A stretch of 64,000 nucleotides of DNA from a virus. The notes beneath the pieces are model-generated. The model was given only the letters and a program-made list of their open reading frames with translations. It was not told the DNA's origin and did not search any database. The translations under genes were made by a program, and so were the position numbers. The stretch lies in IMG/VR virus record IMGVR_UViG_3300023110_000006; one strand, given 5' to 3'. Shown piece after piece: positions 26,025 through 48,311 of the stretch. How positions within the stretch are numbered: the stretch's first letter is position 1; each line of letters opens with the position of its first letter.

Positions 26025-27200
26025 ATGTCAGAACTACTAGAAAGTCGCTGGCACGAGACCAAAGATGCGCTTATGGAAGGCTTAACAGGCAACAAGAAGT
26101 CTGTTATGTCAGCTACCTTAGAAAATACTCGTAAGTATTTGGCTGAGACAGCTACAGCAGGTGCAACTAGTGCCGGTAATGTCGCAACTCTTAACAGAGT
26201 TATTTTACCAGTTATCAGACGTGTAATGCCAACAGTTATCGCAAACGAACTAGTTGGTGTACAGCCGATGACAGGTCCAGTGGGTCAAATCCACACATTG
26301 AGAGTACGCTACGCTGATACAGCTGGCACAGGCGCAAGCGGTGCAGTAACAGGCGAAGAAGCACTTTCACCATTCAAGATCGCTGAAGCATATTCAGGTG
26401 ACACAACCAACGCTACGGCGGCGGCTACTGCGGCACTTGAAGGTTCAGCAGGTAACAGACTAAGCATCCAGATCTTAAAGCAAACAGTCGAAGCAAAAAC
26501 CAGAAAGCTATCAGCTCGCTGGACTTTTGAAGCGGCTCAAGATGCACAAGCACAACACGGTATCGATGTTGAAGCTGAGATCATGGCGGCTTTAGCACAA
26601 GAAATTACTGCTGAAATCGATCAAGAAGTTTTAGCTTCATTACGTACACTATCAGGTAATGCAGTACAAACTTACGATCAAGCGGCAGTATCAGGTACAG
26701 CAACATTTGTTGGTGATGAACATGCGGCACTTGCAGTTCAAATCAACAGAGCGGCTAACTTGATTGCACAGCGTACACGTAGAGGTGCAGGTAACTATGC
26801 AGTGGTATCACCATTTGCATTAACAATCCTACAATCTGCTACAACTTCAGCGTTCGCAAGAACAACTGAAGGTACTTTTGAAGCACCAACAAACACTAAG
26901 TTTGTAGGTACTTTAAACAATGCAATGCGTGTGTACGTTGATACATATGCAGGTGACGGTACAGCAGTACTAGTTGGTTACAAAGGTTCTTCAGAATCTG
27001 ATGCACCAGCGTTCTACTGCCCATACATCCCACTAATGTCAAGTGGTGTTGTGATGGATCCAGGTACATTCGAACCAGTTGTGAGCTTCATGACTCGTTA
27101 CGGATATATCGAGCTATCAAACACAGCTTCATCTTTGGGTAATGCGGCTGATTACCTAGCAAACGTTGCAATCACAAACGCAAACGTAAGCTTCAGCTAA
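26025..27200 (+). CDS. Major capsid protein, T4 gp23-like
   Basis: VGVQPMTGPVGQI, VEAKTRKLSARWTFEAAQD, FYCPYIPL and FMTRYG signatures. Confidence 0.96.
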   Translation: MSELLESRWHETKDALMEGLTGNKKSVMSATLENTRKYLAETATAGATSAGNVATLNRVILPVIRRVMPTVIANELVGVQPMTGPVGQIHTLRVRYADTAGTGASGAVTGEEALSPFKIAEAYSGDTTNATAAATAALEGSAGNRLSIQILKQTVEAKTRKLSARWTFEAAQDAQAQHGIDVEAEIMAALAQEITAEIDQEVLASLRTLSGNAVQTYDQAAVSGTATFVGDEHAALAVQINRAANLIAQRTRRGAGNYAVVSPFALTILQSATTSAFARTTEGTFEAPTNTKFVGTLNNAMRVYVDTYAGDGTAVLVGYKGSSESDAPAFYCPYIPLMSSGVVMDPGTFEPVVSFMTRYGYIELSNTASSLGNAADYLANVAITNANVSFS

Positions 27201-28492: not shown

Positions 28493-28867
28493 ATGTTGAA
28501 GCATAAACATTTGGTGGTAAGAGCAGAAGTTGATAATCCAATAATCAACAAAGCAAAAGCCACCAAATTTTTACGATCTTTAATCAAAAAAATTAATATG
28601 AAACCTTTGTATGGTCCAACTGCAAGCTATTGCAAAATGGAGGGTAACAAAGGAATAACTGCTTTTGCAATTATCGAAACAAGTCATATTGCAATGCACA
28701 TATGGGACGAATCACAACCTGCACTAGTACAACTAGATGTATACAGTTGTTCAGACTTTGACCCAAAAACTGTATTTGAACATTTAGAGTCAATGAAACC
28801 AGTAGTAATTGACTATAAATTTTTAGATAGAGAAAAACAATTCATTGAAATATTAAATAATAAATAA
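28493..28867 (+). CDS. speD: S-adenosylmethionine decarboxylase-family proenzyme (pyruvoyl-dependent)
   Basis: GITAFAIIETSHIAMHIWDE and DVYSC motifs; 124 aa. Confidence 0.8.
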   Translation: MLKHKHLVVRAEVDNPIINKAKATKFLRSLIKKINMKPLYGPTASYCKMEGNKGITAFAIIETSHIAMHIWDESQPALVQLDVYSCSDFDPKTVFEHLESMKPVVIDYKFLDREKQFIEILNNK

Positions 28868-28871
28868 TTAT

Positions 28872-28915
28872 ACGTTCAGCCTACGGGCCGGAAGTAGCAT
28901 TAAGCGAAGGAACGC
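28872..28915 (+). ncRNA. Glutamine riboswitch (glnA-motif / glutamine-I class)
   Basis: CGUUC-AGCC(UACG)GGC-CGGAAGUA-GC(AUUAA)GC-GAAG-GAACG matches the P1/P2/E-loop/P3 layout of the glnA RNA as I recall it. Confidence 0.8.
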
Positions 28916-28943
28916 ACCTAAACTTTAACAAAGGGAGGGTGAT

Positions 28944-29099
28944 ATGAACTTTAAATGGGATTTAAAGAAACCCTTAGCAGATCTTAAACGTAAAATAAGC
29001 ACAAGTGCAGTACTACGTAAACGCTCAAAAGACAGCATTGCAAGACCTAAGGCCGAAAAAAATATACTATCTAAAGACTCAAGAATGCAAAAAATTTAA
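28944..29099 (+). CDS. Unannotated 51-aa basic peptide downstream of the glutamine riboswitch
   Basis: MNFKWDLKKPLADLKRKISTSAVLRKRSKDSIARPKAEKNILSKDSRMQKI*; GGAGG RBS at about 28934-28938. Confidence 0.75.
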   Translation: MNFKWDLKKPLADLKRKISTSAVLRKRSKDSIARPKAEKNILSKDSRMQKI

Positions 29100-29118
29100 T
29101 TTTTTGGTAAAAAAGAGG

Positions 29119-29147
29119 TTGACATTTAGATAATAGTTTGCTATATT
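29119..29147 (+). promoter_or_regulatory. Strong sigma70-type promoter (extended -10) for the ncRNA
   Basis: TTGACA(29119-29124)-N17-TATATT(29142-29147), with TG at 29139-29140. Confidence 0.75.
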
Positions 29148-29153
29148 AGTAAC

Positions 29154-29372
29154 ATAAGCAACAAGAGAGTAATTAACTTTTGTTTTTTAGTGCATCGAAG
29201 AGGCTCTTACCAGAGGGTCGAAGATGGCTAGTTAGGGGTGGTACCCAGGCATGGTTGCAGAAATGCGTTGTGTCACATCGCTCTACCGAGCGGAACTAGG
29301 CGCCCGGGATTCAGACAGGTATCTGCGTCGAAGGGTTGTAGGTGAAACCGAGTCCTACCTAAAATTGCTTAT
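29154..29372 (+). ncRNA. Putative stand-alone structured ncRNA (family not recognised)
   Basis: Own promoter and terminator; 5' AUAAGCAA pairs with 3' UUGCUUAU; GC-rich multi-hairpin core with complementary UACC and GGUA loops. Confidence 0.7.
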
Positions 29373-29380
29373 TATCTTTT

Positions 29381-29414
29381 AAGGTTTACAAAGGAGACTT
29401 TGTAAGCCTTTTTT
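29381..29414 (+). terminator. Rho-independent terminator
   Basis: AAGGTTTACAAAG-GAGA-CTTTGTAAGCCTT followed by TTTT. Confidence 0.85.
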
Positions 29415-29423
29415 CATTTGTGA

Positions 29424-29523
29424 TAAATACTTGTGTCAGGTAGTGTGCCGCGAGGCGGACTTATGGGGAACCAACCCCGTAGCACCTAGAACGTGCATCG
29501 GACTTCTATAAAGGAGAAAACAA
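29424..29523 (+). promoter_or_regulatory. Late promoter plus structured 5' leader
   Basis: TAAATA (29424-29429), three hairpins, possible pseudoknot next to the AAGGAG RBS. Confidence 0.55.
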
Positions 29524-29970
29524 ATGGGAAGACCACTTAATAAAAGATACTTCGGCGAACCAACTGCCGGAGGTAATGAAATCAAATGCGATTTTCATAA
29601 CGGGACAGCAGTTGTTGAAGGACACATTGTTCGTCAAAAAGGTAGTAAGAAATTCGTAGTAGCAGAAATCGGTGCATCAGACACTGAATACACTTGCACA
29701 TTAACAACAGGTAAACTTATGTCAGCACTAGCGGCTGGTGAAATGGGTATCACTATGTTAATGGATGATTCAGAAACATATCAAGTTTCTAAAATCACTG
29801 GACGTAAAGCAACACTAGTTGCTCCAGATGCAACAGGAACAAACGCTTATGACGGCAAGTCAGTAGCTTGGAACTTTGACGCAGATCTAACTGATGGCGG
29901 CGCACAAGTTGAAGAAGCTGGTGATGACGATACAGCAGGCGTTGATGATGACGATTTTGCTAACGCATAA
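29524..29970 (+). CDS. Hypothetical virion structural protein (MGRP-start)
   Basis: Late promoter, strong RBS, followed by a strong hairpin (29979-30002). Confidence 0.65.
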   Translation: MGRPLNKRYFGEPTAGGNEIKCDFHNGTAVVEGHIVRQKGSKKFVVAEIGASDTEYTCTLTTGKLMSALAAGEMGITMLMDDSETYQVSKITGRKATLVAPDATGTNAYDGKSVAWNFDADLTDGGAQVEEAGDDDTAGVDDDDFANA

Positions 29971-43442: not shown

Positions 43443-46400
43443 ATGGCTGAATTTAGAATAGATAGACTTCGTTTTAACTGGATAGGTACATGGAGCGCAG
43501 GCACAGTATATAGAAAAGATGATGTTGTGCAATATGGTGGTAAGGTATTTGTTGCACTAGCTAACCATACAGCGAGTGCAGATTTCAATGACGACCTAGA
43601 TAATTTTGTTGCAGGGGTTGCTACTCCTAAATGGGAACAAATGCTAGATGGATATGAATGGAAGGGCGAATGGCAACCTGAAACTTTTTATAAAGTACAT
43701 GATATTACAAAATATAGAGGAATAGTGTACACTTGTATTGACAGCCATACAAGCCAGGCTACTATTGCACTTGGTTTAGAATTCGATCAAGAAAAATGGA
43801 AAATATTTTCAAAAGGTCCTAATTATCTTGTAACATGGACAGCAAACACATATTATAAGAAAAATGATTTAATAAAATACGGTGGCAGTTTATATTCTTG
43901 TACACAAGATCATCAAAGTAACGATGCAGTCAACGGTTTAGAATTTGATATAGATAAATGGGCAATTTATAATAGAAGTGATAATTGGAAAAATATATGG
44001 ACAGTTAACACTAGATATGTAAAAGATGACATTGTAAGATATGGTGGTAACATATACAGATGTATTGTTGGTCACACAAGTAACAGCGACATACGAGAAG
44101 GTATCGGAACTGATTTAGGTTTAGATTCTTCTGTAGCAAAATGGGAATTAGTTGCAGAAGGAATTGAATACAAAGGAGCATGGTCAGGTTCACAATGGTA
44201 TAAAACAAATGACATTGTAACATATGGATCAAACTTGTATAGAGCAAGAAGAGGTATGAGTGGTACTGATACATTTGATGACACAGACGATTGGGATATT
44301 TGGTTACCTGGTTTAGGTTATGAAAATGTGTGGAGTGACAATGAAGTTTATCAACCAGGAGATGTAGTAACATACGGTGGGTATTCTTACATAGCATTAA
44401 CAATTAATATTGGTTCAAATCCAAGTGCATTTGATGTCCAACAAGACGGTGTTGGAGCAGATTGGGAAATTATAACTAGAGGTTACAATTTAAGAGGTGA
44501 ATGGGATATTTTAGTTCAATATAAACCTGGTGATGTTGTACGCAAAGGCGGCTACTTATACGAAGCACTTTTAAACATACTACCTGTTGAACAAACAGAA
44601 CCGGGCGATCCAGACAATGACACAACTGCAAGTTGGAGATTAATTACTACAGCGATTGCATGGAAAGGCGAATGGAAAGATTCTGCTAGTGAAGATAGTT
44701 CTTTTTTCCAATATTACCCCGGCGATGTAGTTATGGACGAAAGCATTTCTTATATTTGTAAAAAACAACACTATAGCAATATTATCGAAGCTAGACCAAA
44801 ATTTGATTTACAAAAAAATAGTCCAGGACCAGATTATTGGAGTGTTTATGCTGGAGCAAATGAAACTAGTGTAACTAATAATGTATTGCGTTACAAAGGT
44901 GATTTAAGAACTTACAGCGTTAGAGATGATGGTAGCACAGCTGGTCCTTCGAGACTAGCTATAGGAACATCTGGTAATGTACTTAAGGTAGATGAAGACA
45001 GTACATTAAAATGGGCTAATTTAGGAGAAATAAACAAAGTTTGGTATGTTGCTGGACAGGGAGAAGATATTCCTGAAAACGGCAGAAGCCAATCAACTCC
45101 TTTTAAAACAGTCAAATATGCACTACAGTATTTACAAGGTAATTTATTAGAAAGAACACCTGCTACTGTGTTTGTAGCAACAGGTGCATATAAAGAAATA
45201 CTTCCAATAGTTATACCAAAAGATGTTGCAGTAGTTGGAGACGAATTGCGTAGCACAACAATTATGCCTGCAGATGGATATGAAACTAGTGACATGTTTT
45301 ATATGCATAACGGTAGTGGATTAAGAAACTGTACATTACAAGGTTTAAACGGAACATTAGGAGATCCAAATGACAATTTAACTAGACGTCCGTCAGCTGG
45401 TGCTTACGTTTCATTAGACCCTACAGCAGGAGATCCAAGCCAAGACTATGCTTGGATTGAAACAAAATCTCCTTATGTACAAAACGTAACAACATTTGGT
45501 ACAGGATGTATAGGAATGAAAGTAGATGGTGATCTACACAACGGAGGCAATAAGTCAATAGTTGCAAATGACTTTACACAAATTTTAAGTGATGGTATTG
45601 GTTATTGGGCTAACGGTGAAGGTAAATCAGAACTTGTGTCAGTGTTTACGTACTATTGCCATATAGGTTACCTTTCAACTGATGGTGGTAAAGTTCGTGC
45701 ATTGAACGGAAATAATTCATATGGAGAGTATGGTTGTGTTGCTGAAGGTTATGATATAAATGAAACACCGATCACAGGATCTGTTGATAACAGAAGTAAA
45801 CAGGCACAAATTGCATTTACGTACACAAACAAAGATAAGGTATTTGGAGTTGCATATACAAATGCAGGAGAAGCATATACAAGTGCAACATTAAACATTG
45901 CTGGTAATGGTACAGGTTTTGCTTCAACATTGGACAGTGATATTAGAGACGGTGCAATTACTGAAATATTTGTTACAGAAGAAGATTCTAACTTTATTGG
46001 TGGTAGTAACTATACATTCCTAGCAAACAAAGCACAAATAGGAACAACAACGACACTTACACTTAGTGGCGCAGATGATCAAGATGATCCAAACAAATAT
46101 ATTGGTCAAAGACTTTTTATATATGACGGTAAAGGTACAGGACAGTACGGAAGAATTACAGGCCTTAACACAACAAATAAGATTGTAACTGTAGCAAAAG
46201 AATCAAATGGTGAACCAGGATGGGAACATGTTTCCGGAAGACCGATAGAAGCAAGCCTAAACGATACAACAAGATATTATATTGAGCCACGAGTAGATAT
46301 TTCTCCTCCTAATTACACTACAGGAACAGTAAGTTTAGGAAGCTCAGATACGTGGACAGATTGCGCTTCAGGAACTTATAATAGTTCACCTATATATGTA

Positions 46401-48311
46401 GCAACAGCAAATGAAGGTACTGTTGTAACTAGTAACGACGGTGAAGGTTGGAATCCAGCTACTACGTCAAATGGAAAATTTGTTGCAATAGCAAATGGAA
46501 ACATTTTTGTTGCGAACGATGCAGGTGCAGGTGATTACAGTACAGACGGCGGCGCTACATGGGCAAACAGCGGTAGTTTTACATATACCGGTGTTGTAAC
46601 AGATATAACTGGCAGACCAGATAATAATACAATGTTAGCAACACTAGGAGGTGGCGGAACTACTACCGATCTTGCACGTTCTAGTGATGGTGGCCAATCA
46701 TGGTCAACCGTTACACTTCCAACTTCAGATTTTTGGACTTGTACTGCCTACGGAAACGGAACTTGGGTAGCACTTGCAGGTACTGATAGTAATAGAAGCA
46801 ACAACTATGTCTATTCAACAGATGATGGATCAAATTGGACAGCAGGTACGTTGCCAGCAACTAGCGCATGGAGCCATGTAACTTTTGCAAAAGACAGATT
46901 TGTAGCAATTACAAATAAAACAGATAGTTCAGTAGCAGAAACAGCAGTAAGCTATGATGGTATAACTTGGTACGAAGGATCTATGGAGCCAGGCGAATGG
47001 TCAGGCATTGCATGGAACAATGGTACATTTTTATGTCCAAAAAGTGATACAGGCGCATCATCAGATGTTATTGCAGTAAGTAGAGACGGGTTTCATTGGA
47101 CATCTAAACTAGTTGACTCTGCATTTGAAAAACGCGGAGGTGTTATTGCAACACAAAATGGAGTATGGATTATTCCTACTGCTACAGAAGCAAATGCTGT
47201 TAAAATTAATTACGGAACACCAGCTTTGGCTAGAGCGTCTGTTGCAAGTGGTAGAATAGGATCTTTTTACATACACGAGACAGGATCAAATTACACAGAC
47301 ACTCCAACTGTAACAGTTTTTGATAATACAAAAACATCAGATGTAACAGTTAATCCTAGGGTAGGCAATGGTGTGCTATCACAACCAGCTATAACTAATT
47401 TTGGTAGTAACTACTTTAGATCTAGTGCTACAGTCAGCGGTGACGGTTATGCAGATCTATTGCAAATTGCAGATGAATTAATAGTTACTGGAATCTCAAA
47501 ACTTCCAGGACCTGGTGATAATATTACCATAGGCGGCATTGACGATGTTACATATTTTGTTGTTAAAATTAAAGAATCTAGTGGAGGTGTAGGTAACTAT
47601 AATCTAACACTTCAAATTAGTCCTAATTTAGGTAGAGCAGAAGCTCCAACTCACGGAGAAAATGTTGTTATAAGACAAAAATACAGTCAAATTAGATTGA
47701 CTGGACATGATTTCTTAGACATAGGTACAGGTAACTTTGGAAGTACAAATTATCCAGGATTATATGTGTTTGGATACGATCCAGATGCAAATGCTGAACC
47801 AAAACAGTTCCAAGAAGTTGTACAATTCAACGGTGGTCGTGTGTTCTATACAAGTACAGACCAAGACGGTAACTTTAGAGTTGGTGAACTATTTGAAGTT
47901 GAACAGGCTACAGGTACAATTAGTATTAATGCGGCATTCTTTGAACTAGATGGTTTAGAAGAACTTAGACTAGGCGGTGTTGTACTAGGTGGTACAGGTG
48001 CTGTGGTTAGAGAATTTTCAACTGATCCAACCTTTGCGGCAAACAGTAATAACATTGTTCCAACACAAAAAGCTATTGCCGCATATGTACAATCTAGAGT
48101 ATCATCAGGTGGATCTGATTTGAAAGTAAACAGACTTAATGCAGGTAATATTAGCTTCGAAGGCAATAAAATTTTCAAAGTACTAGGAGGTTCAATTAGT
48201 ACTTTAGTACCTGTAAACTTTAAACAAGGAGTTGATGGTGAAATTGCGGCACAAGCATACTTTAGATTTGGTGGCGTTGGCGCAGTAGGCGGAAACTTTG
48301 TGGAAGAATAA
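43443..48311 (+). CDS. Large virion fibre protein C with carbohydrate-binding repeats and BNR/Asp-box propeller (1622 aa)
   Basis: N-terminal W-x5-Y-x3-D-x-V-x-YGG repeats (CBM5/12-like); Asp-boxes STDGGATW, SSDGGQSW and STDDGSNW. Confidence 0.7.
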   Translation: MAEFRIDRLRFNWIGTWSAGTVYRKDDVVQYGGKVFVALANHTASADFNDDLDNFVAGVATPKWEQMLDGYEWKGEWQPETFYKVHDITKYRGIVYTCIDSHTSQATIALGLEFDQEKWKIFSKGPNYLVTWTANTYYKKNDLIKYGGSLYSCTQDHQSNDAVNGLEFDIDKWAIYNRSDNWKNIWTVNTRYVKDDIVRYGGNIYRCIVGHTSNSDIREGIGTDLGLDSSVAKWELVAEGIEYKGAWSGSQWYKTNDIVTYGSNLYRARRGMSGTDTFDDTDDWDIWLPGLGYENVWSDNEVYQPGDVVTYGGYSYIALTINIGSNPSAFDVQQDGVGADWEIITRGYNLRGEWDILVQYKPGDVVRKGGYLYEALLNILPVEQTEPGDPDNDTTASWRLITTAIAWKGEWKDSASEDSSFFQYYPGDVVMDESISYICKKQHYSNIIEARPKFDLQKNSPGPDYWSVYAGANETSVTNNVLRYKGDLRTYSVRDDGSTAGPSRLAIGTSGNVLKVDEDSTLKWANLGEINKVWYVAGQGEDIPENGRSQSTPFKTVKYALQYLQGNLLERTPATVFVATGAYKEILPIVIPKDVAVVGDELRSTTIMPADGYETSDMFYMHNGSGLRNCTLQGLNGTLGDPNDNLTRRPSAGAYVSLDPTAGDPSQDYAWIETKSPYVQNVTTFGTGCIGMKVDGDLHNGGNKSIVANDFTQILSDGIGYWANGEGKSELVSVFTYYCHIGYLSTDGGKVRALNGNNSYGEYGCVAEGYDINETPITGSVDNRSKQAQIAFTYTNKDKVFGVAYTNAGEAYTSATLNIAGNGTGFASTLDSDIRDGAITEIFVTEEDSNFIGGSNYTFLANKAQIGTTTTLTLSGADDQDDPNKYIGQRLFIYDGKGTGQYGRITGLNTTNKIVTVAKESNGEPGWEHVSGRPIEASLNDTTRYYIEPRVDISPPNYTTGTVSLGSSDTWTDCASGTYNSSPIYVATANEGTVVTSNDGEGWNPATTSNGKFVAIANGNIFVANDAGAGDYSTDGGATWANSGSFTYTGVVTDITGRPDNNTMLATLGGGGTTTDLARSSDGGQSWSTVTLPTSDFWTCTAYGNGTWVALAGTDSNRSNNYVYSTDDGSNWTAGTLPATSAWSHVTFAKDRFVAITNKTDSSVAETAVSYDGITWYEGSMEPGEWSGIAWNNGTFLCPKSDTGASSDVIAVSRDGFHWTSKLVDSAFEKRGGVIATQNGVWIIPTATEANAVKINYGTPALARASVASGRIGSFYIHETGSNYTDTPTVTVFDNTKTSDVTVNPRVGNGVLSQPAITNFGSNYFRSSATVSGDGYADLLQIADELIVTGISKLPGPGDNITIGGIDDVTYFVVKIKESSGGVGNYNLTLQISPNLGRAEAPTHGENVVIRQKYSQIRLTGHDFLDIGTGNFGSTNYPGLYVFGYDPDANAEPKQFQEVVQFNGGRVFYTSTDQDGNFRVGELFEVEQATGTISINAAFFELDGLEELRLGGVVLGGTGAVVREFSTDPTFAANSNNIVPTQKAIAAYVQSRVSSGGSDLKVNRLNAGNISFEGNKIFKVLGGSISTLVPVNFKQGVDGEIAAQAYFRFGGVGAVGGNFVEE

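What the first reader, a model, noticed from the sequence alone, without database searches (positions are those of the whole stretch)
29119..29414. Independently transcribed ~220-260-nt RNA with two UACC loops and two complementary GGUA loops
Seen in sequence: a near-consensus promoter (TTGACA-N17-TATATT with TG extension) and a strong terminator bracket a GC-rich segment with no credible protein gene. Its ends pair (AUAAGCAA 29154-29161 with UUGCUUAU 29365-29372). Two hairpins carry UACC loops: CUCU-UACC-AGAG (29204-29215) and CGCUC-UACC-GAGCG (29279-29292). Two carry GGUA-containing loops: GGG-UGGUA-CCC (29236-29246) and CAGA-CAGGUA-UCUG (29312-29325). There are also a CUAGUU/AACUAG helix (29228-29233/29294-29299), a GAAA-tetraloop arm and a GUAGG/CCUAC arm. 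Inference: the UACC/GGUA loops could form two kissing pairs, either within one molecule (compact fold) or between molecules (rings or cages, by analogy to phi29 pRNA hand-in-hand loops). I do not recognise the family. It sits between the capsid and fibre modules but has a host-type promoter.
Basis: partly seen in the sequence, partly recalled or inferred. Interest (0 to 1): 0.85.

Follow-up and report, generated by a model that had tools for sequence, protein, structure and literature searches.

The report
manA RNA gene in marine myophage
The stretch encodes a real, well-folded non-coding RNA, but it belongs to the known manA family (Rfam RF01745), whose members a 2026 cryo-EM preprint showed joining loop-to-loop into rings and a 60-unit cage; this copy is a terminated, self-contained version in an uncultured marine T4-like phage.

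Summary
The RNA is not a new family: window 29160-29368 matches Rfam manA (RF01745) over the full model, 59.3 bits against a cut-off of 55.2.

Among 28 distinct relatives, 62 of 67 base pairs show two-sided changes. The internal ORFs are not conserved.

That work found intermolecular L5-L7' plus L8-L9' or L3-L8' contacts, giving pentamers, decamers and a 60-mer. The four loops map to L3 and L7 (UACC) and L5 and L8 (GGUA).

My comparisons add the following:
- L8-L9 complementarity covaries strongly (eight states in all). In this copy L8 could therefore pair with L9 (ACC) rather than L3.
- Nearly every manA copy starts right behind a near-consensus sigma-70-type promoter.
- In this clade 21 of 28 copies end at a terminator that has no anti-terminator partner.
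- The downstream gene has its own late promoter and its own leader.
- One relative carries tRNA genes in the same slot.

The best reading is a free-standing early phage RNA that probably self-assembles. Its cellular role is unknown. It is a new member of a known kind, of moderate interest.

The parts
29109..29147 (+). Promoter: A-tract 29109-29114, -35 TTGACA 29119-29124, TG 29139-29140, -10 TATATT 29142-29147
   Evidence: scores it 11/12 with TG. A site of 10/12 or better lies at the same distance in 25 of 28 distinct relatives, 24 of them with TG, while the spacer sequence varies. The same holds for 63 of 65 canonical manA copies and for P-SSM2.
29154..29372 (+). manA-family RNA core. The predicted 5' end is about 29154, 7 nt after the -10 hexamer.
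   Evidence: Rfam RF01745: 59.3 bits against a cut-off of 55.2, E 1e-12, model positions 1-192. My own model R1 gives 221 bits. Nine G-U pairs fix the strand as +.
29154..29160 (+). P0 5' arm (AUAAGCA), which pairs with 29366-29372. This terminal helix is not part of the Rfam model.
   Evidence: All 7 pairs show a two-sided change somewhere, and 83.6% of cells are paired. The Rfam match begins at 29160 and its last 8 positions are unpaired.
29161..29183 (+). P1 hairpin. Loop L1 (29168-29176) carries the self-complementary UAAUUA at 29170-29175.
   Evidence: All 6 modelled P1 pairs covary. UAAUU is invariant in the 11 sequences of the window's subgroup. An L1-L1' contact is listed for the manA_A0F1 60-mer.
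29186..29190 (+). P2 5' arm (UUUAG), which pairs with 29359-29363 (CUAAA)
   Evidence: In the Rfam alignment it replaces the consensus GGGAG/CUCCC.
29193..29226 (+). P3a/P3b hairpin with loop L3, UACCAG, at 29208-29213
   Evidence: L3 is invariant in the window's subgroup. It can form 4 bp with L8 GGUA, and also 4-5 bp with L5.
29228..29299 (+). Four-way junction. P4: 29228-33 with 29294-99. P5: loop L5 GUGGUA 29238-43. P6: 29248-74 with GAAA at 29260-63. P7: loop L7 UACC 29284-87.
   Evidence: The P4-P5-P6-P7 junction is named as the family core in the preprint supplement.
29302..29336 (+). P8 hairpin with loop L8, CAGGUA, at 29316-29321
   Evidence: L8 covaries with L9 in relatives.
29338..29358 (+). 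P9 hairpin with loop L9, UGAAACCGAGU, at 29343-29353. ACC at 29347-29349 is complementary to GGU of L8.
   Evidence: The paired segment sits at the same place in L9 as in relatives and in the solved RNAs.
29381..29416 (+). Intrinsic terminator: 13-bp stem, GAGA loop, T run
   Evidence: Terminators with unrelated stem sequences follow 21 of 28 distinct relatives. Their pairing with the manA 3' part is no better than for shuffled arms.
29423..29526 (+). Separate unit for the next gene: ATAAATA (resembles a T4-type late promoter, 29423-29429) and the freshwater-2 leader 29444-29526, ending at the ATG of ORF 29524-29970
   Evidence: Rfam RF02980, 73.3 bits. It was found before this gene in all 31 relatives scanned with Rfam, with or without manA; two of these scored just below the cut-off. 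GATAAATAC is conserved across the flanks shown.

Best explanation
Window 29154-29372 (+) encodes a member of the manA RNA family (Rfam RF01745).

Transcription. Host RNA polymerase starts at about 29154 from a near-consensus, extended -10, sigma-70-type promoter, which is the early class in a T4-like phage. It stops at the intrinsic terminator near 29416. The product is a free RNA of about 220-260 nt, not a leader for the next gene.

Fold. The RNA adopts the family fold: P1, P2, P3a/b, a P4-P5-P6-P7 four-way junction, P8 and P9. An extra helix (P0) joins its two ends.

Assembly, inferred by homology with the five family members examined by cryo-EM. Exposed loops pair between molecules. L5 (GGUA) pairs with L7' (UACC). 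L8 (GGUA) pairs with L9' (ACC) or L3' (UACC). This would give five-membered rings that close into larger particles, possibly through the self-complementary L1 loop and the P6 GAAA loop.

Status of each step:
- Shown: family membership, the fold, and conservation of the promoter and terminator.
- Inferred: the transcript ends, assembly of this particular copy, and which loop partners it uses.
- Unknown: what the RNA or its assembly does in the infected cell.
For: Membership:
- Full-length Rfam hit above the curated cut-off.
- Relatives at the same locus also hit manA as their best family, at 41-75 bits.

Fold:
- 62 of 67 pairs have two-sided changes, and no shuffle out of 500 reaches the observed values.

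Transcription unit:
- A promoter of 10/12 or better lies at a fixed distance in 25 of 28 distinct copies, with a variable spacer.
- It is also present at the non-syntenic Mosig copy, in P-SSM2 at 12/12, and in 63 of 65 canonical copies.
- Terminators with unrelated stems follow 21 of 28 copies.
- These terminators show no anti-terminator complementarity: mean z +0.22.
- The next gene keeps its own ATAAATA motif and freshwater-2 leader in relatives that lack manA.
- L019 has three tRNA genes in the same slot.

Assembly:
- Cryo-EM shows manA pentamers, decamers and a 60-mer held by L5-L7', L8-L9' or L3-L8', L6-P6' and L1-L1' contacts.
- The helix numbering there matches mine.
- In a register-free test, each copy's own L8-L9 complementarity exceeds all 5000 partner permutations, with six complementary states.
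- The canonical set adds CUGU/ACAG in 55 copies and AUGU/ACAU in 8, with no exceptions.
- L009 shows a G-C to A-U swap in L5-L7.
Against: - There is no expression data for this or any copy. The transcript ends are inferred.
- The Rfam score is only 4 bits above the cut-off.
- Folding energy alone is unremarkable (z = -1.1).
- Column-wise counts on the model-fitted alignment are weak for the loop pairs: 61% for L5-L7, 71% for L3-L8, 53% for L8-L9. The loops are not aligned in pairing register there, so the positive result rests on my register-free test.
- L5-L7 varies too little for that test.
- Covariation cannot tell intermolecular from intramolecular pairing.
- Assembly was shown in vitro at high RNA and Mg concentrations for other members, not for this sequence. 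L8-L9 is only 3 bp here.
- Seven of 28 clade copies and about half of the canonical copies run straight into a gene. The family is therefore often a leader, and a cis role cannot be excluded.
Confidence: 0.7

Rival explanations
1. Cis-regulatory leader or riboswitch, which is the family's database label. On this reading the RNA senses a ligand or condition, and the terminator at 29381-29416 is its expression platform. It would control early read-through into the freshwater-2 leader and the 148-aa gene.
For: - Rfam and Weinberg et al. 2010 class manA as cis-regulatory and a probable riboswitch.
- P-SSM2 manA abuts purL, and Mosig manA abuts a rubrerythrin gene with no terminator.
- L016, L021 and L065 have no terminator.
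- 29 of 63 canonical copies have an ORF starting within 40 nt.
- A mix of terminated and RBS-adjacent members is typical of riboswitch classes (general knowledge).
Against: - The terminator begins 8 nt after the last helix.
- Across 19 copies, terminator arms pair with the manA 3' part no better than shuffled arms do: mean z +0.22, -5.9 against -14.7 kcal/mol for the hairpin.
- The downstream gene has its own conserved promoter-like motif and leader, and exists without manA in close relatives.
- In L068 and L081 the terminator is followed by a second sigma-70-type promoter.
- tRNA genes replace manA in L019.
- In the papers I searched and read no ligand is reported since the motif was described in 2010. 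That search was not exhaustive.
Confidence: 0.17
2. Compact monomer. The complementary loops pair within one molecule as pseudoknots, and the RNA acts as a monomer, for example as a protein decoy or a trans-acting small RNA.
For: - The 2010 description drew a tentative 'pseudoknot?' in manA.
- Covariation of L8-L9 is equally compatible with pairing in cis.
- P8 and P9 are neighbouring hairpins.
Against: In the five manA RNAs examined by cryo-EM, every loop-loop contact described is between molecules. The window copy keeps the same junction and loop positions.
Confidence: 0.1
3. phi29 pRNA-like packaging RNA. On this reading a five-fold RNA ring docks on the prohead and takes part in DNA packaging, as the position beside the capsid genes might suggest.
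For:
- The gene lies 2 kb downstream of the major head gene.
Against: - The same RNA lies in replication or metabolic neighbourhoods in Mosig and P-SSM2. It also occurs in Photobacterium chromosomes.
- The closest relative by the neighbouring gene lacks it altogether.
- It has an early-type promoter set among late genes.
- T4-type packaging motors need no RNA (general knowledge).
Confidence: 0.03

Closest known systems
manA RNA motif, Rfam RF01745 (Weinberg et al. 2010, PMC2864571; structure updated in Rfam 14.3, PMC7779021)
   Same: - Full-length covariance-model match above the cut-off.
- Same helices P1-P9 and the same four-way junction.
- L5 GUGGU(A/G) and an ACC-bearing L7.
- Found in marine T4-like phages.
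- Sits directly behind a strong sigma-70-type promoter.
   Different: - An extra terminal helix P0.
- P2 is UUUAG/CUAAA instead of GGGAG/CUCCC.
- L1 is a 9-nt loop with UAAUUA instead of GACG.
- L3 carries UACC.
- It is followed by a terminator instead of a gene.
- Most members of this clade score below Rfam's cut-off, at 41-54 bits.
manA_A0F1 and manA_67AA, cryo-EM structures (bioRxiv 10.64898/2026.07.01.735769)
   Same: L5-L7' complementarity is GGU/ACC-type. L8 is complementary to the middle of L9, and that pair covaries in relatives.
   Different: - Those RNAs have a short P6 (4 bp), whereas here P6 is 6+4 bp.
- L8-L9 is CUGU/ACAG (4 bp) there and GGU/ACC (3 bp) here.
- Whether this copy forms a decamer, a 60-mer or neither has not been tested.
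[quoted passage not shown]
   Same: A long P6 capped by a GNRA loop, and an L3 loop complementary to L8. Together with L5-L7' these give three candidate contacts.
   Different: - L3-L8 is UCAGC/GCUGA there and UACC/GGUA here.
- Those copies are chromosomal and lie upstream of a gene.
- Here L9 also remains complementary to L8, so the partner is ambiguous.
phi29 pRNA
   Same: A phage-encoded RNA whose loops pair between molecules to form a ring.
   Different: No sequence or fold relationship was found. No link to a packaging motor is seen. manA also occurs as an mRNA leader and in bacterial chromosomes.
Stable small RNAs encoded beside the tRNA genes of phage T4 (recalled from general knowledge, not tested here)
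   Same: Free-standing, early-expressed, structured phage RNAs of unknown function. In L019 the manA slot holds tRNA genes.
   Different: No homology is claimed or was tested.

Membership tests
manA RNA (Rfam RF01745) | Covariance-model score at or above the curated gathering score (55.2 bits) over the whole model | tested here: met
   59.3 bits, E 1e-12, model positions 1-192 of 192. The margin is only 4 bits. The homologous Mosig, L061 and L009 copies score 64, 61 and 75 bits.
manA RNA (Rfam RF01745) | P2 closing helix, P3a/P3b, a P4-P5-P6-P7 four-way junction, and P8 and P9 hairpins | tested here: met
   All helices are canonical in the window and appear in the MFE fold. 62 of 67 pairs covary among 28 distinct homologues. 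The junction is named as the family core.
manA RNA (Rfam RF01745) | Complementary L5 (GUGGUR) and L7 (ACC-containing) loops, the I1 contact found in the four solved junction-type RNAs | tested here: met
   GGUA at 29240-43 and UACC at 29284-87 give 4 bp. L009 has a compensatory G-C to A-U change. The column-wise count is only 61% paired because of register shifts.
manA RNA (Rfam RF01745) | L8 complementary to L9 or to L3, the I2 contact | tested here: met
   L8 GGUA against L9 ACC gives 3 bp, and against L3 UACC gives 4 bp. L8-L9 covaries: 0 of 5000 permutations reach the observed value, and the canonical set splits 55 and 8 with no exceptions. Which partner this copy uses was not resolved.
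manA RNA (Rfam RF01745) | Location in the 5' UTR of a protein-coding gene, the cis-regulatory label | tested here: not met
   A terminator at 29381-29416 separates it from the next gene, which has its own promoter-like motif and leader. This is a contextual label and not part of the model. About a third of canonical copies are also terminated.
manA RNA (Rfam RF01745) | Self-assembly into pentamer-based closed oligomers | not testable with these tools
   Shown by cryo-EM for five other members. It needs an in vitro transcript of this sequence.
Riboswitch with terminator expression platform | Terminator stem competes with part of the aptamer through a conserved alternative pairing | tested here: not met
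   Duplex energies between terminator 5' arms and the last 60 nt of manA equal those of shuffled arms in 19 copies, mean z +0.22. The terminator stems are unrelated in sequence.
Riboswitch with terminator expression platform | Specific ligand binding | not testable with these tools
   No ligand is reported in the papers I read.
phi29-type packaging RNA | Constant association with the packaging or head module, and presence in every relative | tested here: not met
   The neighbourhoods differ in Mosig and P-SSM2. The RNA is absent from L002 and is replaced by tRNA genes in L019.

The most novel reading that the evidence does not exclude
In this phage clade manA may have stopped being a leader and become a free, strongly transcribed early RNA, with assembly into closed RNA rings or shells inside the infected cell as its selected function. 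Several clade-specific features support this idea. A terminal helix ties the two ends together. L1 is palindromic. A third ACC loop gives L8 two possible partners. Most copies have a dedicated terminator. Covariation of contacts that are intermolecular in the solved structures would then be the first evolutionary evidence that natural RNA cages matter in vivo.
Probability: 0.35. Interest if true: 0.8.

Novelty: new member of a known kind. Interest (0 to 1): 0.4.

Why it matters
As a discovery claim it is deflated. The family has been in Rfam since 2010, and its ring and cage assembly was posted in July 2026.

What remains useful:
- The preprint has no covariation or in vivo analysis. The strong L8-L9 covariation found here, across two independent sets of phage copies, suggests the assembly contacts are under selection and are not a test-tube artefact.
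- Nearly every phage copy starts at +1 of a near-consensus extended -10 promoter. That fits a need for high RNA concentration.
- A sizeable clade in uncultured marine T4-like phages, including the cultured Pelagibacter phage Mosig, mostly scores below Rfam's cut-off and is usually terminated. The 'cis-regulatory' label is therefore doubtful for these copies. Mosig offers a cultivable system for testing what the RNA does, although its own copy lacks the terminator and runs into the rubrerythrin gene.

Tried and rejected
1. Protein-coding reading. The 43-, 39- and 35-codon ORFs inside the RNA are not conserved. The ATG is present only in the window and Mosig, and most relatives hit a stop within about 20 codons in the 43- and 39-codon frames; the 35-codon frame stays open for 14 to more than 45 codons but is not conserved as a gene.

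2. Folding energy as evidence. The z-score is -1.1, which is uninformative.

3. Column-wise covariation of the loop pairs on the model-fitted alignment. L5-L7 gave 61%, L3-L8 71% and L8-L9 53% paired. This is inconclusive because loop lengths differ. A register-free permutation test replaced it. Its first version timed out, and two hand-typed structure strings had the wrong length.

4. Both GGUA loops are identical, as are both UACC loops. In the permutation test L7-L8 was not above control (p 0.17) and L3-L5 only weakly so (p 0.02).

5. The L3-L8 signal (p about 2e-4) rests on one lineage plus L018, so it counts as weak.

6. Anti-terminator search: negative.

7. nhmmer with the window sequence alone missed divergent copies such as L009. 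The covariance model recovered them.

8. No whole genome is held for the window. Syn9 and S-PM2 carry no manA.

9. The major head protein gives no host assignment. Its best isolates are scattered T4-like phages at about 70% identity.

Full report
**1. Observation.**
- The consensus scan finds TTGACA-17-TATATT with a TG extension at 29119-29147, scoring 11 of 12. It also finds a 13-bp terminator hairpin at 29381-29410 followed by a T run.
- In the whole 64-kb window there are eight sites scoring 11/12 or better: seven on the + (coding) strand and one on the - strand. Shuffles give about 1.75 per strand. The site at 29119 is the only one with the TG extension.
- The energy itself is unremarkable (z = -1.1), so the case for a real RNA has to come from comparison.

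**2. Identity.**
- Rfam's curated thresholds are met by three families in a row. These are a glutamine riboswitch (28871-28918), manA RNA RF01745 (29160-29368; 59.3 bits against a cut-off of 55.2; E 1e-12; model 1-192 of 192), and freshwater-2 (29444-29526).
- The finding is therefore a member of a family described in 2010 from marine metagenomes, T4-like cyanophages and two gamma-proteobacteria. That paper rated it a probable cis-regulator and riboswitch candidate, with a tentative 'pseudoknot?' (PMC2864571).

**3. Genomic setting.**
- No host genome is held.
- The neighbours are a T4-type major head protein (26025-27200), an unassigned 388-aa ORF, a speD-like gene (28493-28867) and structural-protein-like ORFs downstream. 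This is an uncultured T4-like phage.
- By DNA similarity, the only cultured phage with a related manA is Pelagibacter phage Mosig (74.8% identity). There it lies between a hypothetical gene and a rubrerythrin gene, a different neighbourhood.

**4. Relatives and fold.**
- The downstream 148-aa protein retrieved 80 viral loci.
- Freshwater-2 was found directly before that gene in all 31 loci scanned with Rfam; two scored just below its cut-off.
- The slot upstream varies. It holds manA in 47 of the 80 loci, three tRNA genes in L019, and no such island in L002, the closest relative.
- I built a covariance model from the window-like subgroup, using the Rfam register plus the terminal helix. It aligned 48 copies, 28 of them distinct.
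- On that alignment 91.9% of cells are paired, against 67% in shuffles and 35-46% with slid partners. 62 of 67 pairs show two-sided changes. The alignment was fitted to the structure.
- The terminal helix P0 (29154-60 with 29366-72) is not in the Rfam model, and all seven of its pairs covary.
- All tested relatives hit manA full-length as their best Rfam family, but at 41-64 bits, mostly below the cut-off. This clade sits at the edge of the curated model.
- The internal ORFs are not conserved, and nine G-U pairs fix the strand as +.

**5. The kissing-loop idea.**
- A July 2026 preprint (bioRxiv 10.64898/2026.07.01.735769) reports cryo-EM work on five manA RNAs. They build pentamers that close into octamers or decamers or into a 60-subunit icosahedral cage.
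- The contacts are intermolecular. L5-L7' is present in all four junction-type RNAs (A0F1, 67AA, A28C, A767).
- The second contact is L8-L9' in A0F1 and 67AA, which have a short P6. In the two Photobacterium RNAs, which have a long P6, it is L3-L8' plus a GNRA(L6)-P6' contact. An L1-L1' contact is listed for the 60-mer.
- The supplement's helix names (P2, P3a, P3b, a P4-P5-P6-P7 junction, P8, P9) match my numbering.

**6. What comparison adds on the loops.**
L9 (29343-53) has ACC at 29347-49.
- I ran a register-free test on distinct loop combinations. Own-partner L8-L9 complementarity exceeds all 5000 partner permutations.
- Six complementary states occur at one fixed place in L9: GGU/ACC, AGGAU/AUCCU, CAGA/UCUG, GAGA/UCUC, AAUGAUC/GAUCAUU and GUG/CAC.
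- In an independent set of 63 distinct canonical copies, all 55 with L8 CUGU have ACAG in L9, and all 8 with AUGU have ACAT. The regex split the first class only because ACAC precedes ACAG in that loop.
- The solved A0F1 and 67AA RNAs use CUGU/ACAG at that position (Table S3).
- L3-L8 complementarity (UACC(A)/(U)GGUA) is invariant in the window's subgroup and absent elsewhere apart from L018 (UUUCGU/AUGAAA). That is roughly one evolutionary event.
- L5-L7 varies little. L009 shows a G-C to A-U swap, the divergent subgroup has AGU/ACU, and Photobacterium has UGU/ACA.
- Column-wise counts on the fitted alignment are weak for all three loop pairs, because loop lengths differ.
- In this copy L8 can pair with L9 (3 bp) or with L3 (4 bp). 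Since the two GGUA loops are identical, as are the two UACC loops, sequence alone cannot fix the partners.
- The long P6 with its GAAA loop resembles the Photobacterium type.
- L1 (29168-76) carries a self-complementary UAAUUA. UAAUU is invariant in all 11 sequences of the window's subgroup while the P1 stem covaries. Other manA copies have GACG there.

**7. Free RNA or leader?**
- A promoter of 10/12 or better ends 6 nt before the first base of P0 in 25 of 28 distinct copies, 24 of them with TG. The spacers vary, and most copies have an A-tract upstream of the -35 hexamer. This places the 5' end at about 29154.
- The same holds at the Mosig copy, for P-SSM2 at 12/12, and for 63 of 65 canonical copies. 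A start at +1 of a very strong sigma-70-type promoter is therefore a family trait.
- Downstream, 21 of 28 clade copies have a terminator, and the terminator stems are unrelated in sequence.
- Seven clade copies have no terminator and run into the next gene, including Mosig and L016, L021 and L065.
- Among canonical copies, about a third are terminated and about half abut an ORF, as in P-SSM2 with purL.
- For the terminated copies I found no anti-terminator. Terminator arms pair with the manA 3' part no better than shuffled arms do: mean z +0.22.
- The next gene has its own conserved ATAAATA motif and freshwater-2 leader. ATAAATA resembles a T4-type late promoter, which is my own knowledge and was not tested here.
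- Taking this together with the tRNA-for-manA swap in L019, I read this copy as a self-contained early RNA gene of about 220-260 nt. A cis-acting role stays possible at roughly one chance in six.

**8. Mechanism and limits.**
- The best-supported account runs as follows. The RNA is strongly transcribed early. It folds into the manA core with its ends tied by P0. Molecules then join by loop-loop pairing into five-fold rings and larger closed particles.
- Family membership, the fold and the promoter/terminator conservation are shown. The transcript ends, assembly of this particular sequence and the partner choice are inferred.
- The preprint contains no covariation or in vivo analysis. The covariation of contacts that are intermolecular in the structures is therefore independent, if indirect, support that assembly is selected.
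- What the assembly does in the cell is unknown. Possibilities include sequestering a host factor, forming a stable scaffold, or clustering and protecting mRNAs when the RNA is used as a leader.

**9. Verdict.**
- This is a new, somewhat divergent member of a known family, with modest added value for an active question: whether natural RNA cages have a biological role.

Noticed in passing
window 28871-29099: A glutamine riboswitch (RF01739, 47.6 bits) sits directly after an AATAAATAA motif and directly before a 51-aa ORF (28944-29099). The same pair recurs upstream of manA in many relatives.
   Followed up: partly
window 29444-29526 and L002-L081: The freshwater-2 motif (RF02980) was found as the leader of the 148-aa gene in all 31 loci scanned with Rfam; two scored just below its cut-off. 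It ends at the gene's ATG and is preceded by a conserved GATAAATAC. The 148-aa protein has no PHROG match.
   Followed up: partly
MZ577095-MZ577098 (Methylophilales phage Melnitz), about 45144-45224 / 46396-46476: The stretch similar to this window's glutamine riboswitch region (78.6% identity over 83 nt) is annotated 'SsrA' in the four Melnitz records. This may be a mislabel, or the feature may overlap.
   Followed up: no
L019 2156-2381: Three tRNA genes occupy the slot between the glutamine-riboswitch ORF and the freshwater-2 leader, where other relatives carry manA.
   Followed up: partly
L016, L021, L027, L032, L058, L067, L018, L048, L069, L039: Clear manA homologues (R1 scores from 51 to 246 bits) score only 41-54 bits with the Rfam model, below its 55.2 cut-off, or in the case of L067 give no Rfam manA match at E 0.001 or better. 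Routine annotation will miss most of this clade.
   Followed up: yes
L068 and L081, about 2090-2140: Right after the manA terminator comes a second TTGACT-17-TATAAT promoter and another small ORF. Back-to-back early units lie inside a late-gene region.
   Followed up: no
window 28493-28867: A 124-aa ORF matches the phage S-adenosylmethionine decarboxylase family (phrog_3125, E 1.5e-13). It is an auxiliary metabolic gene wedged between head genes and the RNA cluster, and it is absent from the closest relative, L002.
   Followed up: no
L085 1466-1500 (P-SSM2, AY939844 about 142802-142836): The manA of Prochlorococcus phage P-SSM2 (181.6 bits) is preceded by a perfect 12/12 TTGACA-17-TGnTATAAT promoter and runs into purL after about 15 nt.
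   Followed up: yes
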